Below, one piece after another: positions 5,123 to 62,645 of a stretch of DNA of 64,000 bases (within the stretch, counting starts at the first letter, position 1; every line of letters begins with the position of its first letter). Source of the stretch: Eledone cirrhosa (lineage: Eukaryota); contig OZ024740.1 of NCBI GenBank assembly GCA_964016885.1, forward strand, positions 88,660,001 through 88,724,000. Direction: 5' to 3'. Below the pieces are notes generated by a model that was not told the DNA's origin, did not search any database, and was given only the letters and a program-made list of their open reading frames with translations. Both the position numbers and the translations under genes were made by a program.

Positions 5123-5283
5123 TATATATATTTATTTGGTTCCTTTACCGGTTTCGCAGTTCTTCTGCTTTTCAAAAGTAGAGTTGAGATGGAGGGTCTG
5201 TGGTTTTTCATCTCAACTCTACTTTTGAAAAGCAAAAGAACTGCGAAACCGGTAAAGGAACCAAATAAATATATATATTTTTT
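5116..5283. repeat. Near-perfect hairpin (about 75 bp arms, 17 nt spacer), each arm carrying an HHR-like motif with a UUGAAAA core
   Basis: Arms 5116-5191 and 5209-5283 are reverse complements. Right arm 5222-5257 reads ctt-TTGAAAA-gca..tgc-GAAA-ccggta-aag. Confidence 0.9.
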
Positions 5284-6772: not shown

Positions 6773-6872
<100 letters not shown>

Positions 6873-6912
6873 GATATTAAACAAATGGAAACTATATTTA
6901 TAAAACCATATT

Positions 6913-6978
6913 TATTTCATTATACATATTTCAGGGATACCATATTAAAAATATGGCATGCCTTCTTCAGATAAAATA
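6913..6978 (-). ncRNA. Type I hammerhead ribozyme in the left arm of the inverted repeat
   Basis: Reverse complement of 9199-9264. Confidence 0.8.
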
Positions 6979-8893
6979 CAATATATAAGCAGTTTTATAA
7001 ATAAATTTGACGTACCATAAATATTGATCAACTTTTATGTAAGAAGTTGGTTTGGTAGTGAGATGTTTATAAATATTTAGTGTTAAGCACAGTTAGAAAG
7101 AAAGACGGAGAAAAGGAAGAAATGTATGTAAAGAAAAACAGAGAGAGATAGAGAGAGATAGGGGAGAGAGAAATTGTGAGGAGGTGACAAATGAGAGGCA
7201 GCTGAGGCAACAGATGAATAATAATAATTCATCATACAAATTGAGAGATTTAGGAGGGAGTACTGTAATTATTTATTTATTTATTTATTTAGTTATAGTG
7301 TTAAGGAGACGGAGAGAAATAAAAAATAAATAAAGAGAAAACAGAGAGGTAGAGAAAGATAGAGGTGGGTGGAAAAAGAGGTAGATCAAATAATAATAAT
7401 TATATATGGGGAGGTGAGAGAAATAGGAGAGAAGTAAGAGAGAAAACAAGAGAGAAGCTCGACAGGCAAAGTTAAAATAACCGATACTTAAATTTCATCA
7501 TGTATAAAGAGGGAGGAGAAGAGAGAGCTATATCTAGAGAGAAGGATGATAGATTTACAACTTTACGTTATGTCCTATCAATTTGAATTATCAATTCATA
7601 TGAATTGGGTATTATAATGTAAATATCAATATTCATGAATGAGACATAAATATATAATGTGTGAAAAATAATGACCATATGTTTAGTTTAAAAATTCTTA
7701 GGTCGATGTACCAAAAACTGAGATAAAACTTCAAAAAATACGGAAATACATAAGTATATATGTACTTTCCGGAAAAGGAAAGAAAGAGAAAAAGAGAAGG
7801 TCATCTCAAGTTCTAGTTGACACTATAGACATACCCGTGATCTTACCTGATCAACTCTGTAATTTCTTATTTCACAAGAAAAAAAGGGTAGATTTCTGTG
7901 GTTGATATGGGGGGCATACTGCGTTTTTTACGGCCCTAGATACTCTGGGGAGTGATGAAAATATTCTTAACGTTTTGATATCTCTGTGCCGATATATTAA
8001 TATCTGTTGTCTCTGTGCAAAGGCCATATGTATTAATATGAATATGGAATGATTACAGAGTATATTCTATTTTATCTGTTTATTTTATCTGTCCATGTAC
8101 ATATATGTGCACACGCATATATATATATATATGTATGTGTGGCTATAGTTCTGGATATGTTACAGATATGCATACTATTCTATACATGAACGATAATCAT
8201 GTATGTGAGGGCAGGAATGTTAATATTAATATATATTTTTATGTATATATATGTATGTATATATATATATAGTAAAATCTTTTATAACACAAGGGAACAT
8301 TTTTTTTCCTGTGAAATAAGAAATTACAGAGTTGATCAGGTAAGATCACGGGTATGTCTATAGTGTCAACTAGAACTTGAGATGACCTTCTCTTTTTCTC
8401 TTTCTTTCCTTTTCCGGAAAGTACATATATACTTATGTATTTCCGTATTTTTTGAAGTTTTATCTCAGTTTTTGGTACATCGACCTAATAATTTTTAAAC
8501 TAAACATATGGTCATTATTTTTCCCACATTATATATCTATGTCTCATTCATGAATATTGATATTTACATTATAATACCCAATTCATATGAATTGATAATT
8601 AAAATTGATAGGACATAACGTAAAGTTGTAAATCTATCATCCTTCTCTCTAGATATAGCTCTCTCTTCTCCTCCCTCTTTATACATGATGAAATTTAAGT
8701 ATCGGTTATTTTAACTTTGCCTCTCGAGCTTCTCTCTTGTTTTCTCTCTTACTTCTCTCCTATTTCTCTCACCTCCCCATATATAATTATTATTATTTGA
8801 TCTACCTCTTTTTCCCCCCACCTCTATCTTTCTCTACCTCTCTGTTTTCTCTTTATTTATTTTTATTTCTCTCCGTCTCCTTAACACTATAAC

Positions 8894-8929
<36 letters not shown>

Positions 8930-9198
8930 CTCTCAATTTGTATGATGAATTATTATTATTCATCTGTTGCCTCAGCTGCCTCTCATTTGTCACCTCCTCA
9001 CTATTTCTCTCTCCCCTATCTCTCTCTACCTCTCTCTGTTTTTCTTTACATACATTTCTTCCTTTTCTCCGTCTTTCTTTCTAACTGTGCTTAACACTAA
9101 ACATTTATAAACATCTCACTACCAAACCAACTTCTTACATAAAAGTTGATCAATATTTATGGTACGTTAAATTTATTTATAAAACTGCTTATATATTG

Positions 9199-9264
9199 TA
9201 TTTTATCTGAAGAAGGCATGCCATATTTTTAATATGGTATCCCTGAAATATGTATAATGAAATA
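9199..9264 (+). ncRNA. Type I hammerhead ribozyme in the right arm of the inverted repeat
   Basis: tattttat-CTGAAGA-agg c atgccatatt ttt aatatggtat c cct-GAAA-tatgta-TA-atgaaata. 8 bp stem I, long stem II, AUA triplet. Confidence 0.82.
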
Positions 9265-9391
9265 AATATGGTTTTATAAATATAGTTTCCATTTGTTTAA
9301 TATCGTATATCTACTCCAAAACTTGTTGAATGCTTTATATCAGTTATAAAATATTTACTTGTTGTAACCCAACAATTTTAAATAAAACTTT

Positions 9392-20869: not shown

Positions 20870-21069
20870 CTGATGGTAGCTAAGATGCTTCCATAGGCGG
20901 TATGCCGGCTGAGCACTCTATCCTCTTACTGAGCAGAGTATGGTATAATATAAAACGAAAAATCAGTGATGCATCTGAAATCAATCACACCCATATATAT
21001 ATATATATATATATATACGCAAATAGGATATATACACAAGGCCATATAAGGATACACAATCGGTCATAC

Positions 21070-22190
21070 AATTGGTCATGCATGAATGATGCATTTTGTT
21101 ATAAGCATGCACATATATAAACAATACAATCATACCTATATATACACACACACATATATCTATATATACACATCCATATATACACATACGTATATACACA
21201 TATATAAACAATAAACATGCAATATATTAAAGGTGTAGGTATAACGTCCCATGGAGATATATAAACAGAATGAGGAATGTGTATAGTATAAGATAGTAAA
21301 CAGGAGAAGCATGAGATATACAGAAAATATACAGACAATATAATATGTGTTACAAGATGGGATACGTGGAGTGTATGGACTCTCTATTGAAAAGATACAC
21401 ATGCATGGGGGTGCGTGGACCGGCCATACTGGAGTATGTCACTGTGGTTGAGGTATATTGTCCTATAGGTGTAATGCATTTGACTGGAAGTCAGTGGAAT
21501 CAGGGTCGGCCTGCACCGGCTCGGGCTATGTTCTTTCCTAGGGTGACGTGCAGAGTCGGGTATGCATCCCGGGTTATTTCGGTTTACCCACGTGGCATAT
21601 ATAGTCAACAGGGTATGTTGTCTGATCCCTAGAACCCGTTTCGCCGCTCTGGTCGGCGCACGCTCCGCCGCATGCCTTTAGCCTAGGCTTCCCGGTGGAT
21701 TCCATGCGTAGAGTGTACACATTCTCTGGTGTCTGCAGGTCATGATTATTTCCGATTTCAGGTTGACCGCATCATTCATCAGTCTGACTATCTCCATGGC
21801 CTCGTATAGGCATAGCCTACACTTTCTGTTTCCAGCCGAGTATGCATTCAGTGCCGGACGATACTCCAGTCAAGGGCATACGGGGTGCCCTTGTCCCTCA
21901 ACAGGTCCGCCAGCCTAGTAGAGTGTCTCTTATTCCGGTCCTTGTGTACTATCTTATACGCATACACATTCCCCATTCTTTTTATATATCTCTATGGGAC
22001 GTTATATCTTCACCTTTAATATGTTGCATATTTATTTTTTATATATGTGTATATACGTTTGTATATATATGAATGTGTATATATATACATGTATATATAT
22101 GTGTGTGTATATATGGGCATATGTGTATGATTATATTGTTTATATATGTGGATGTTTATAACAAAATGCATCATTCATGCATGACCCATT
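21070..22190. repeat. Diverged inverted repeat (about 230 bp arms) around a GC-richer spacer
   Basis: 21070-21298 matches the reverse complement of 21947-22190. Confidence 0.8.
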
Positions 22191-22301
22191 GTGTATCCTT
22201 ATACACTTTATGCTTAATTAAAAGCATTTTGAAGACCGTATGCTATTGTTTTAGAGTAGTGACAAATTCACTTACTTTAATCTCAGCAAACAGGGGAGAT
22301 A

Positions 22302-22347
22302 AGCCCACAAGGGCCTTGTTTCGCTTTTGTTGAAGCTTATCAAGGCT
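22302..22347 (-). ncRNA. Hammerhead fold with UUGAUAA core, inside a 318 bp direct-repeat unit (22201-22565)
   Basis: agcc-TTGATAA-gctt caacaa aagc-GAAA-caag gcc cttg-TG-ggct. All three stems are perfect. The triplet is GUG, which is normally not cleavable. Confidence 0.7.
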
Positions 22348-22721
22348 AACTACCGCTCCTGTCTACTGAGATTACTGATGTTATATTCTTATAGAATTCT
22401 AGTAAATAATCAGGAGCTGATTATACAGAGCGATTGTTGGTCAGGCAGAAATTAAAAATTAGAATTGGAGCTCTGAAATAGCAATATATATATGGATGTA
22501 TATATAATGTATTTTGCAATACACTTTATGCTTAATTAAAAGCATTTTGAAGACCGTATGCTATTATTGCGTGCGCCTATATGTGAATATGCGCATATTT
22601 GTATGCGCGTATATGAGCCAGTGTGTGTGTGTGTGTTTACAAGCACATAATGTAGCGAAAGGGCTTGTTGGTGTGTATATATGTATGTGTGTATGTGAGT
22701 ATAGATATGTGTGTATATATA

Positions 22722-49452: not shown

Positions 49453-52050
49453 AGTATAAAAGAGAAAACACAGGTAAGCATTAAGAGAAGGATTTAATCC
49501 AGGTATTTACGACCGTTTCATTGGTAAGTGCAACCTTATATTGCTATACTGCAAATAGCAGCCACTGGAATATAACAGCACTGTGGATTATAACAAGGAA
49601 ACATACGGCTTCAAATCGTGTAAAAACCCACCTACCAACCCTCAACTGGATGCCTTTGAACAGGACTTACTGAAGATGATTATGAATATCAAATTAAAAA
49701 AGCGGAGGAATAATAAACTCCAGAATGTCATAAATACATTCATAAAAAAGCTGCGAACCACCAATGGAATTATTGTCAAAGCGGACAACACATCAAATGT
49801 GTATACGATGGATGTTAATACATACAATAGCTTCATACGGAAAGAATTACATAGGAAATACAAAAAAAAAAACAAATGAGGCGGCACTGATAAACATCAA
49901 CAACGAAGCACACAATATAGTCAAACACCTAGGAATAGACGACAGAACGGAGTCACTTAAGCCATGTACCCCCACATTTAACCTCAAAGACCACAAGGTA
50001 AATTTTGATTATAACCCCACTATTAGACTTATATGTCCATCCAAATCGGACATCGGGAAAATTAGTAAACATATATTAGAGAGAGTGATAGCACAAATGA
50101 AGAATAAACTAGTGATTAAACTATGGGGTAACGCTACCGAAACAATTAAATGGTTTAACAATATAGCTAACAAAGAAGTATCTAAATTTATACAATTTGA
50201 CATTAACGATTATTACTCATCTATATCCCCCAACACCTTGGATGAAGCCTTAGCATTCGCCAAAGCCAATTCTGACATAACAGACGACGAGATAAAAATC
50301 ATATTAGCTGCTAGGAAAACAATAATTAAATTTGAAAACGCCTATTGGGAACGTAAGGATAGATTAAATAACTTTGACATCACGATGGGGGCTAACGACT
50401 CGGTTCAAGTCACAGACTTAGTAGGTATTTACATAGCCCATAGTATACAAAGCGAGTTTAGCGACCTTCACGATGGAATCTACAGAGACGACGCCCTTCT
50501 CCTAGTTAAGAACCTAAATAACCAGAGCATAGAAAGACTCCGTAAGAATATTAGAAATACTCTCAGAAAACTAGACCTTAGCATAACGTAAGAGTATAGC
50601 ACTAAAACAGTTAACTTTCTAGATGTGACGCTTAACCTAAATACAGGATTTATAAGACCTTTTCACAAGATTAATGAAAACTTAGCATACATCAACTGTA
50701 ACTCAAACCACCCACTATCAATAATTAAATCCATTCCACGCAGCATATCCCTTAGGATCTCCAGCCTCTCATCTAACCGGCAAGTCTTCGAAGAACATGC
50801 AGAATACTACAATACCGCATTAGACAAGGCAGGCCACTTAGATAGAGTAGAATATATAGATGAAAGCCTCTGTGAAGCACACACGAACACGCATAACACA
50901 AACTCCAGAAACACACGCATACACACATTTACGCATAGAACTGCAAAGTATACGGCAAATAGAAATACAACATCGAAATCAAACAAGTCACGCAGTAGAA
51001 AATATATTTGGTATAACCCCATATTTAACACCTCTATTAGTACTAACCTACCCTCTACTTTCTTTAGAATAATAAATAGGCATTTTCCAGATTCACATAG
51101 ATACAGCAAAATCCTTAACACTAAATCTATTAGACTATCCTACTCCACGGCACCAAATATAGAAGCACACATTAAGATGCTTAACGCTAAAAAGATACAT
51201 AACAACACCAAAACACAAATTTACAACAATAACAATACAATTACCACCGAACACAAGAGAATATCTAATACACAACCACCCGCTAATAGGCAAACAAAAC
51301 GTAACACACTTGTTCAGGCATCGCAGCCCACAAATAATGCCAAAGTTGCCCATAACAAGAAATGTAACTGCCACCTACCTGAAACCTGTCCATTACAAAA
51401 TGAATGTATGCAGTCTAACCTGATTTACCAATGCACAGTGGAATCAGACAACGAGAAATGGTATTACATCGGAGCGACTGGGAATACTTTTAAAGCTCGT
51501 TGGTATACACACCGTTACGCAATGAAACATTCCCAGCACCGTTATGTAACTACCCTTGCAAACAAGACCTGGCAACTGAGGGAAAGTAACCATCAATACA
51601 CCCTGAAGTGGAAACAATTATCGAACGCGCCCCCATATCGGAGTGGTATGAGAAGCTGTCGATTATACGACCTTGAGCTGTTCCACATCTTAAGTTCGAA
51701 GAATAGGTTACTCAACAATAAAATTGAGAGATCAATTTATTGTAACCATAGACTCAAAGAGAAATTTTCGCACTACAAATCGAACCCTTAATCTCTTACT
51801 ACCAACTGACAAACTGCATATACTTAGACTTTATACCCTCTTATATCTAGACCCTTTAATTACCCACAAAACCAATACATATATCCCCCCTTCTCCCTCA
51901 TTCCTCTTCTATTTCTTCGTTTTCTCCCTTCCTTCCCCCTTCTTGGCTATCTTTTCTTTTTTTCCTTCTCAACCCCTTCTTTGCTTTTATTTATGTCATT
52001 ATTATCTTTATTTTTATTTTTTTATATATATATATATATATGTGTGTATG

Positions 52051-54926: not shown

Positions 54927-55560
54927 CCCTCTTCCTGCTATATCAAGCGTTAACCTAATATATACCTTCCATATACTGTACCGATTGTGTTGTTATTTAT
55001 GTTTACCTTTTACATACATATACACACACACACACACACCACGCAATAAGAGAGACAAAGTTGCTCATACATATATTTTCCTTTTTTTAAATTTCCCACC
55101 ATACGGGGATCTGTGACAGACAGTCTGAAGCACCCCCCCTACACACACACATGTGTGAATCTTTTTATATATACACTCTCACACGTAGACGCTCACACCC
55201 TCTAAAACAATTTACCCAAAATAGAATTTCTTTTACAATTCTTCCGTTGCCAATCCCATAGAATTTGGCTCTAGCTTAGAATTTCCCTCCTTCGCCATCC
55301 CTATCTGAAATCTTGACCAATACACAAACACAATTGAAATACACACATATTTACAGAATATTTCACTTGTCCCTAAATACAATTTTGCTCTATGTGTAGA
55401 AACACAACTACTAACACTGCTGCTACTACCACCTCTCACTCTATACACAAGAGTTAATTTTACAGTCTCCTTCTCAGCAAGGAAGATGAACAAACTTACC
55501 TCAACATTTAATTTAAAATCTTGAATTTTTAGTTTTTAATCCTTATTAATTCAATGCTCA

Positions 55561-55600
55561 ACATTTGATAAGATGAATTTTACATCGAAACCGGTAATAC
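55561..55600 (+). ncRNA. Hammerhead-like motif with UUGAUAA core
   Basis: TTGATAA-gatg aatttta catc-GAAA-ccgg-TA, with a weak stem I. An inverted relative of the surrounding repeat (55470-55620) lies at 60910-61085. Confidence 0.6.
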
Positions 55601-55722
55601 TTTATATACTTTATATACATTATAGCACTCTTTTTAAAAAGAATTGTCCCTCTCATTCTTTTCAATAATGCTACTTTAACTAATCAAAGAAAGGAAAACG
55701 AAGACAAGCAGACCCTTCCCCC

Positions 55723-60760: not shown

Positions 60761-62645
60761 AGGTGAAGTTGGAAATAGCACAGAAAATATATTTTAGTGT
60801 CTGTTTTTCTTTTTTTTTCTTTTCTTTGATTCGTCAAAGTGACATTATTGAAAAGATGACGTTATTGAAAAAATCAGAGGGACAATTCTTTTAAAAAAGA
60901 GATTTATAATGTATATTAAGTATATAAAGTATTACTGTTTTCGATGTATTATTAAAATTCATCGTATCAAATGTTGAGTATCACAATTAAAAAGAATTAA
61001 TAAGAATTAAAAACTAAAAAATTAAAGATTTAAGATTAAGTGTTGGAGTAAGTTTTTTCCCATCTTCCTTCCTCAGAAGAATAAGCTTATTGTTTTGAGA
61101 TATGGGATGCATCTGGTTGGTCCCACAGAATACATTTATATATATATATGCACTCAAATTCATTTCAAACCAACGAGAAATGTTTCATATCTCAAGACAA
61201 TATGTTCATTCTTGACTTTCAATATGTTCCCGGCTCGTGTCGAAAACTCCTATCTGAATTCTTACATTTCTGTCACGTTTTACAGCACTTCATAACCCTT
61301 TGCTTCTATTGGCATCATTTATAAACACGCATAGGCAAACTACCTGGTGTCAATAAATGTCGAAAGCTCTGGATGTTGAATCTTGAGTTAGCCATGAAAA
61401 TCACCTAAATGGCCAAACCATTCACAGCAAAAAACGGCTTTCAACTTCCACTCAGACATATGTTTAAATATAAGCTTGGATATACCTTGTTCTTAGAAAT
61501 CTATTCGAAAAGCCCACCGGAAAACATCCCTGAAATTTCTACATCTACGGCGAATGCTAAATACTCGTTCCACAAATTTTGGATTCATCCGTTCTTTTGA
61601 TAGTAGTTTATCTCAGAGTGTTATTGAGAACCCTCCTCATTAAGCTAATTTGGATGTCTTTGAGAACCGAGTATGCAGCAGGTTACATTAAATTGCATGT
61701 TATCAGTAACACTCTTGAGCGAGTTGGCACGCACTCACCACTCACTTCCTCACACACACACATACAAATATATACGTATATATATGTATGGTTAATTATT
61801 CATTTACATATATAGCGAGACGAACTTGATATTCTTGAAGTTAAATTAATAGAAGTAAATTGAGTCGAAGTGGTTTTCTCACATTATTAATGTTCTCTTC
61901 ATAAACAATATTGTTTTAAGGTGCTTAAAATCACCTCATTAAGTTAAAGAATAGATATCAATTCAGAGTCACCATTTGCATTATATGCAACAGTTAAGTT
62001 TGTGATGATATATATTTATTCACTAAATCATACATTATTAAAAAAGTTATTTCTAGTTAGATTTTCATTGTATTAAGTATGTTAACATTGCATGCTTTTA
62101 ACTGTGCCGAGTCTGTTAAATGCAAACATTCAGTCTTGGAATTTGGTTTGAGGATACTGTCCTTTCGTCCTCTATCAATCTTGTGTCTTTGACATGGGTC
62201 ATTGACATTGCTTTTCACGCCTTAACTAACAGTATTAAAGTTCTTGGTTTATACGTAAGGCTGGTATTTCATTAAAATATTGACACATGTGCCCACGCAT
62301 ACATGTGCACGCTCACCTCCACACAACCAAAATCCACTAAATCTAATGCTTATAGACGGGTGTAGGCATAGAGGTTCGGTTAGAATATTCACTTTACGTT
62401 CTGATGATTTATATATTGATCGAACTGTTCTGCAATTAATGTTGATGATGTCTAATCTAGCTTTGAGTATACCATAGAACTCGAGTTTACTTGGATATTT
62501 ACAGAAGCTGTACGGGTGGATTGTACCAGATTAATCATGGTTTCGTCTCCAATTGACACTACCCCACTAGAGGAATTCTTTCAGCCTTTGACTAATCCAT
62601 AATCCATTCACACACAAAACGAAAGCTGAAATAAACTCATACGTA

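What the first reader, a model, noticed from the sequence alone, without database searches (positions are those of the whole stretch)
22201..22565. 318 bp repeat unit with a fully paired U3-A8 hammerhead
Seen: a direct repeat of about 47 bp at 22201 and 22519 brackets a minus-strand fold with three perfect 4 bp stems and a UUGAUAA core. The triplet is GUG in this copy. Together with 5222 and 55561, this makes three unrelated families with the same double substitution. Inference: recurrent use of the rare U3-A8 core in this genome.
Basis: partly seen in the sequence, partly recalled or inferred. Interest (0 to 1): 0.7.

Follow-up and report, generated by a model that had tools for sequence, protein, structure and literature searches.

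The report
Retrozyme with repeatedly swapped hammerhead pair
This is one slightly damaged copy of a young, non-coding 318-base jumping repeat of a known kind (a retrozyme) whose predicted self-cutting RNA carries an already published swap in its core; the added point is that this swap likely arose more than once among the repeat's relatives in this animal genome.

Summary
In detail: an exact 47-bp direct repeat 318 bp apart and a minus-strand type I hammerhead with U3-A8 core (stems 4/4/5 bp). The 'repeat' is only the overlap of 1.16 tandem units. GUG is private to this copy; 37 of 37 other copies read GUC. The family has at least 469 copies, 1.4% diverged, 465 with U3-A8. Copies end at two fixed points in (TA)n, are 5'-truncated and often two-armed: the Penelope footprint. 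So it is a non-LTR retrozyme, likely mobilised by a Penelope-like element; no partner element and no RNA data were found. U3-A8 is published in nature (PMC3088659; about 1,300 in Schistosoma, PMC4209133) and is not rare here: about 9,700 versus 45,500 C3-G8 descriptor hits above control, single mutants 1,100-1,500. Folding predicts an inactive rival helix in the monomer and cleavage as a double hammerhead. The scan noted this kind of element at least eight times before in this genome. Activity is untested.

The parts
22201..22568 (-). Retrozyme insertion, 1.16 units of a 318-bp tandem repeat (family A); single arm; 3' end lacks the family's usual fixed end and (TA)n
22201..22247 (-). 47-bp overlap, second copy of the unit start
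22519..22565 (-). 47-bp overlap, first copy
22302..22347 (-). Type I hammerhead motif: stem I 22347-22344 with 22305-22302; stem II 22336-22323; stem III 22319-22307
22337..22343 (-). Core with U3 (22343) and A8 (22338)
22306..22306 (-). N17: G in this copy, C in the family; private change at the predicted cleavage site
22278..22374 (-). Long hairpin extending stem I (z -5.7 against shuffles); carries a second private change at 22355
22458..22484 (-). Stretch between the family's two fixed 3' ends (unit positions about 82 and 108); holds the short hairpin motif shared by the whole superfamily; Penelope-type 'tail'
5139..5264 (.). Unrelated family C: two inverted copies of a minimal U3-A8 hammerhead (cores 5175 minus, 5225 plus)
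55561..55605 (+). Unrelated family D: minimal U3-A8 motif, stem I only 2 bp

Best explanation
The stretch is one copy of a young, non-coding 318-bp tandem repeat with a type I hammerhead motif (U3-A8 core), likely a non-LTR retrozyme copied by the enzyme of a Penelope-like retrotransposon. Shown: copy number, tandem and two-armed layout, fixed 3' ends in (TA)n, covariation of all three stems and of the 3-8 pair, at least two changes of that pair in the superfamily. Inferred cycle: tandem loci are transcribed; two neighbouring units form a double hammerhead through their near-palindromic stem III and cut after GUC; the 318-nt monomer may circularise and folds with the core locked in a rival helix, so it would not cut again; a borrowed Penelope RT/GIY-YIG protein nicks (TA)n and starts reverse transcription at two internal sites about 26 nt apart, giving more-than-unit, 5'-truncated, often two-armed copies. 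U3-A8 keeps the 3-8 Watson-Crick pair. This copy took a private C17G change, predicted to slow cleavage strongly, and holds one ribozyme only, so it is likely a dead end.
For: At least 469 copies of the ribozyme context, control 0; 98-99% identity among the best 44; 1.4% mean divergence. Longest stop-free frame 50 codons. 3' ends: 36 of 44 arms end at unit position 80-83 or 108-113, mostly running into (TA)n, while 5' ends fall at 43 different positions; 13 of 15 classifiable two-armed insertions pair the two different ends (p 0.004). These match the described Penelope footprint (PMC8557442 passages) and the two internal RT starts of the anole element (PMC11167929 main text). Covariation over 14 picked rows: 98.3% of cells paired, 9 of 14 pairs with both-sided change, slid controls at most 43%. 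Genome-wide descriptor, match/control: C3-G8 47,003/1,541; U3-A8 10,706/1,050; U3-G8 2,317/776; C3-A8 1,838/766. Tree of 30 units, positions 3 and 8 masked: one U3-A8 clade rejected (p-AU 0.0002; backbone only 2e-5; hairpin only 0.006), one reversion clade rejected (0.0003). Double hammerhead cheaper than two single ones in 5 of 6 tandem pairs. Circular monomer folds at z -6.1. U3-A8 reported active in vitro (PMC3088659 section 8, citing a paper I could not open); G17 slows cleavage 8- to 100-fold (PMC3884650 section 8).
Against: No cleavage, transcript or circle is shown. No autonomous element sharing this backbone was found among 50 Penelope-like loci of one clade (one hit is a neighbouring retrozyme insertion). 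Private variants within insertions are mostly single (123) and rarely shared by all units (3; 8 partial), which gives no support for error-prone copying of one circle. 2 of 15 two-armed insertions have the same end twice. In the anole element the ribozyme is not needed for insertion in vitro. No hammerhead family among the 150 of 220 Rfam hits listed. Folding ignores tertiary contacts and proteins; the rival helix is weak or absent in subfamilies A3, I and part of B'. Genome-wide counts check no stems and include overlapping duplicates.
Confidence: 0.8

Rival explanations
1. The units are orphan terminal repeats (pLTRs) of an autonomous Penelope-like element, left by heavy 5' truncation, with no RNA cycle of their own.
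For: Same end signature as Penelope elements; retrozymes are reported to derive from pLTRs (10.64898/2026.07.22.740005, part 1 and passages); an autonomous element here carries a U3-A8 hammerhead.
Against: Units follow each other head to tail with no ORF between, up to about 5 units in family A and 11 in family I; upstream of every arm lies another unit, an inverted arm or unrelated flank; no backbone match in the Penelope-like loci examined.
Confidence: 0.1
2. The ribozyme is a passenger: U3-A8 lineages cut poorly or not at all and spread only because the enzyme recognises the 3' hairpin.
For: Predicted active fold is a minor species in monomers; ribozyme mutants of the anole element still insert in vitro; minimal Penelope hammerheads cut weakly (PMC4209133).
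Against: All three stems, the core and GUH are kept across 25-30% divergence with compensatory changes; amplified lineages carry paired 3-8 states, and single mutants are at the level of decay.
Confidence: 0.07
3. U3-A8 arose once and was spread among families by recombination of the ribozyme module, so the recurrence is only apparent.
For: Template switching between co-packaged RNAs is plausible (inference); one gain with two reversions (3 changes) is not excluded; the hairpin-only tree needs 3 changes and is less resolved.
Against: The hairpin alone also rejects one U3-A8 clade (p-AU 0.006), and in each U3-A8 lineage the stems resemble those of its own C3-G8 sister, not those of other U3-A8 lineages.
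Confidence: 0.15

Closest known systems
Animal non-LTR retrozymes (Cervera and de la Pena 2020, PMC7229834, passages and section 14 read; Li et al. 2026, 10.64898/2026.07.22.740005, part 1 of 5 and passages read)
   Same: 150-400 bp AT-rich non-coding tandem units, one type I hammerhead each, dispersed monomers to multimers, strongly self-paired monomer, co-occurrence with Penelope-like elements.
   Different: U3-A8 core; 5-6 bp near-palindromic stem III; two-armed insertions with two fixed ends in (TA)n were not in the passages I read; circular RNA not shown here.
U3-A8 hammerheads of Schistosoma Cercyon Penelope elements (PMC4209133, parts 1-2 of 4 read) and natural U3/A8 examples (PMC3088659, section 8 read)
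   Same: Same compensated swap of the 3-8 pair, over a thousand copies in one animal genome.
   Different: Those are minimal motifs in terminal repeats; here it sits in a full three-stem motif of a tandem non-coding unit, with homologous C3-G8 sisters that allow the change to be placed on a tree.
Penelope-like element PAc of Anolis (PMC11167929, main text read) and PLE insertion structure (PMC8557442, passages)
   Same: Two internal RT start sites bounding a 'tail', AT-rich targets, partial tandems, inverted 5'-truncated arm, hammerhead upstream of the start sites.
   Different: No ORF; ends about 26 nt apart; partner protein unidentified.

Membership tests
Type I hammerhead ribozyme | Three stems around the conserved core, open stem I | tested here: met
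Type I hammerhead ribozyme | Watson-Crick pair between positions 3 and 8 | tested here: met
   U3-A8 in 465 of 469 copies; C3-G8 in sisters
Type I hammerhead ribozyme | NUH cleavage triplet | tested here: met
   Met by the family (GUC, 37 of 37); not met by this copy (GUG)
Type I hammerhead ribozyme | Self-cleavage | not testable with these tools
   needs an in vitro assay
Type I hammerhead ribozyme | Rfam hammerhead model match | tested here: inconclusive
   none among 150 of 220 listed hits, which were almost all microRNA models on simple repeats
Non-LTR retrozyme | Short non-coding tandem unit with a type I hammerhead in each unit | tested here: met
   318 bp, no ORF over 50 codons, tandem copies
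Non-LTR retrozyme | Dispersed, recent copies | tested here: met
   many chromosomes, 1.4% divergence
Non-LTR retrozyme | Expressed as linear and circular monomer RNA | not testable with these tools
   no RNA holder listed
Penelope-mobilised element | Fixed 3' ends with a tail, 5' truncation, inverted arm, microsatellite target | tested here: met
Penelope-mobilised element | Sequence shared with an autonomous partner | tested here: inconclusive
   none in 50 loci of one clade; only a short hairpin motif beside the ends looks alike; other clades not searched
Autonomous Penelope-like element | RT and GIY-YIG ORF | tested here: not met
   unit is non-coding

The most novel reading that the evidence does not exclude
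The hammerhead's 3-8 core pair has flipped from C-G to U-A several times independently in this one genome (twice in this retrozyme superfamily, again in an autonomous Penelope-like lineage), and position 3 does double duty: it also pairs with position 15.4 in a conserved rival helix that switches the monomer off, evolving C-G to U.G to U-A. The genome would be a natural experiment in how a catalytic RNA crosses a two-step fitness valley, and in how retrozymes cut only as dimers.
Probability: 0.3. Interest if true: 0.55.

Novelty: new member of a known kind. Interest (0 to 1): 0.33.

Why it matters
The element class and the core variant are both published, so the locus itself is ordinary. What is useful: descriptors that demand C3-G8 miss roughly a sixth of GUC-type hammerheads in this genome and a family of some 15,000 minimal ones; and pairs of sister lineages that differ at 3-8 give ready natural controls for how a compensatory change in a catalytic core is fixed and how Penelope enzymes copy non-coding RNAs.

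Tried and rejected
Rfam scan: no hammerhead among listed hits. Expression: no RNA holder listed, no evidence either way. Empty-site allele: one contig of run X1 joined 22203 to 22580 at 85% likeness but was not seen at 93% in X1-X3 or X21; the left flank is itself a repeat, so not used. Single-circle template test by shared private variants: 3 shared, 8 partial, 123 single, no support. First tree (20 units) showed one U3-A8 clade; this was overturned once B-like U3-A8 and E-like C3-G8 units were added. Idea that U3-A8 goes with a longer stem III: rejected, B' shares B's stem III and E' has a long one with C3-G8. A3-A8 hits in L120 are a degenerate short satellite. Search for the partner element: 50 loci of one Penelope-like clade, no shared backbone. 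That clade's protein got no RT hit in Pfam, only GIY-YIG at E 0.39 below cut-off, and nothing in PDB, so its naming rests on recalled motifs. Window ORFs with RT hits were not linked to the unit. The in vitro paper on 3-8 exchanges (PMC1986816) is not held. Paper searches found no report of repeated 3-8 switching or of the rival helix; the library lacks most subscription journals, and supplements of PMC4209133, PMC3088659 and PMC7229834, which I did not open, may list such families.

Full report
Observation. The 47-bp direct repeat at 22201 and 22519 is exact. On the minus strand lies a type I hammerhead motif with stems of 4, 4 and 5 bp, core U3 to A9 at 22343-22337 and G17 at 22306. Thirty composition-matched resamples of the window gave no strict U3-A8 hit. 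The sites near 5222 and 55561 are minimal U3-A8 motifs of two other families with no detectable homology to this one.

The family. The window lies in a 3.0-Gb animal genome; I did not determine the taxon. The unit has at least 469 copies by an exact 35-letter context, control 0. Of these 3 differ at position 3, 1 at position 8, none is C3-G8. That rate equals ordinary decay at 1.4% divergence and so does not itself show selection. The family triplet is GUC (37 of 37 other full copies); GUG and a second change at 22355 are private. The insertion spans 22201-22568, 1.16 units, so the direct repeat is tandem overlap. Its 3' end stops at unit position 47 and abuts the arm of another repeat at a 3-letter microhomology, likely a later deletion (inference).

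Insertion footprint. In 26 loci, 36 of 44 arms end at unit position 80-83 or 108-113, mostly into (TA)n; 5' ends are scattered. In 34 loci, 13 of 15 two-armed insertions with classifiable ends pair the two different ends; L008 and L030 do not, and one three-armed locus was left out. This matches the Penelope pattern of partial tandems, an inverted arm, a tail and microsatellite targets (PMC8557442) and the two internal RT starts shown for the anole element (PMC11167929). The first fixed end lies about 140 nt downstream of the predicted cut, yet most arms run through the cut site, so the template was a circle or an uncut multimer (inference); shared private variants did not decide between them.

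Superfamily and covariation. An 18-letter backbone motif has 23,834 matches, control 0. Sister families share the backbone at 70-86%: A, A2, A3, E and B' with U3-A8; B, E' and I with C3-G8. Over 14 hand-picked rows, 98.3% of cells pair and 9 of 14 pairs change on both sides, in all three stems and at 3-8; the rows are related and the structure was drawn from one of them, so the shuffle values are not probabilities.

Is U3-A8 recurrent? Genome-wide, sequence-only descriptor ending in GUC, match/control: C3-G8 47,003/1,541; U3-A8 10,706/1,050; U3-G8 2,317/776; C3-A8 1,838/766. Independent single changes would give about 36 U3-A8; about 9,700 are seen. A minimal descriptor gives 15,855 against 43, and 98 of the first 100 listed have A8; 14 of 15 family-C motifs held have U3-A8. 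In 790 kb of evenly spaced sample with stems required: 34 C3-G8 (11 from one array), 6 U3-A8 in 5 families, no U3-G8 or C3-A8, 18 others. On a tree of 30 units with 3 and 8 masked, rooted on family I, two changes are needed; one U3-A8 clade is rejected on all columns, backbone only and hairpin only, also without four partial rows, and a single reversion clade is rejected too. Three of 13 new superfamily rows were left out as too short or redundant. Simplest reading: two gains. Separately, an autonomous Penelope-like family with 877-aa ORFs shows a U3-A8 hammerhead in 17 of 30 loci, all U3-A8, while a sister family at 72% protein identity shows C3-G8 in 4 of 7 loci at the like position. Calling these Neptune-type rests on recalled motifs; Pfam gave only a weak GIY-YIG hit.

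Fold. The drawn monomer is predicted to be rare. A rival helix pairs G5, U4, N3 and stem I with the 5' strand of stem III; it is 4-6 bp in 21 of 28 units and shows C-G in B and E', U.G in E and B', U-A in A at 3:15.4, but is short in A3, I and two others. In tandem pairs the double hammerhead costs 1-6 kcal/mol over the minimum against 6-17 for two single ones in 5 of 6 cases; the exception has a truncated first unit. Dimer cleavage is the described mode for animal type I hammerheads (PMC4209133). These are predictions without tertiary contacts.

Known and new. U3-A8 in nature is in PMC3088659 and, about 1,300 times, in Schistosoma Penelope elements. Retrozymes and their link to Penelope elements are described. 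The scan's own notes list at least eight like findings in this genome; look-ups by sequence and nearby place were empty. I found no paper on repeated 3-8 switching or the rival helix in six searches.

Verdict. Real, and a new member of a known kind; this copy is likely inactive. Interest 0.33, carried by the tree evidence for repeated compensatory change and a testable off-switch.

Noticed in passing
window 6864-9313: Two-armed insertion (99% inverted arms) with C3-G8 hammerheads at 6970(-) and 9207(+); the same family flanks a Penelope-like RT fragment in L061.
   Followed up: partly
window 21040-22200: Another element with 86% inverted arms (21068-21302 and 21943-22192) and a GC-richer middle, directly abutting the finding; no hammerhead found in it.
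   Followed up: partly
window 60796-61079: Second, decayed copy of family D (76% to 55470-55716), also U3-A8 but with A9 changed.
   Followed up: partly
L056:6249-9990; L250; L252: Young autonomous Penelope-like family with intact 877-aa ORFs and a three-stem U3-A8 hammerhead 239 nt upstream of the frame; two fixed ends about 107 nt apart, each followed by a short hairpin motif like the one after family A's first end.
   Followed up: partly
L084, L136, L157, L164, L173, L179: Family I (310 bp, C3-G8, minimal palindromic stem III) forms long, nearly identical two-armed arrays of 6-17 units, whereas family A rarely exceeds 2-5 units.
   Followed up: no
G000:C1:47998771-47999127: Two tandem A2 units both carry U3-G8, so a mismatch variant was copied at least once.
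   Followed up: no
L193 versus L194, L195: A U3-A8 copy within a family otherwise C3-G8 (78% identity), a possible further switch; single copy seen.
   Followed up: partly
L196-L198, L201, L202: Several U3-A8 families have C at position 7; a C7-G8 CpG would give a fast mutational route to A8 (speculation).
   Followed up: no
window 6463, 10014, about 19658: Further C3-G8 core motifs; hammerheads occur about once per 8-20 kb in this genome.
   Followed up: no
window 49746-51791: Two long frames (281 and 399 codons) with no Pfam match.
   Followed up: no
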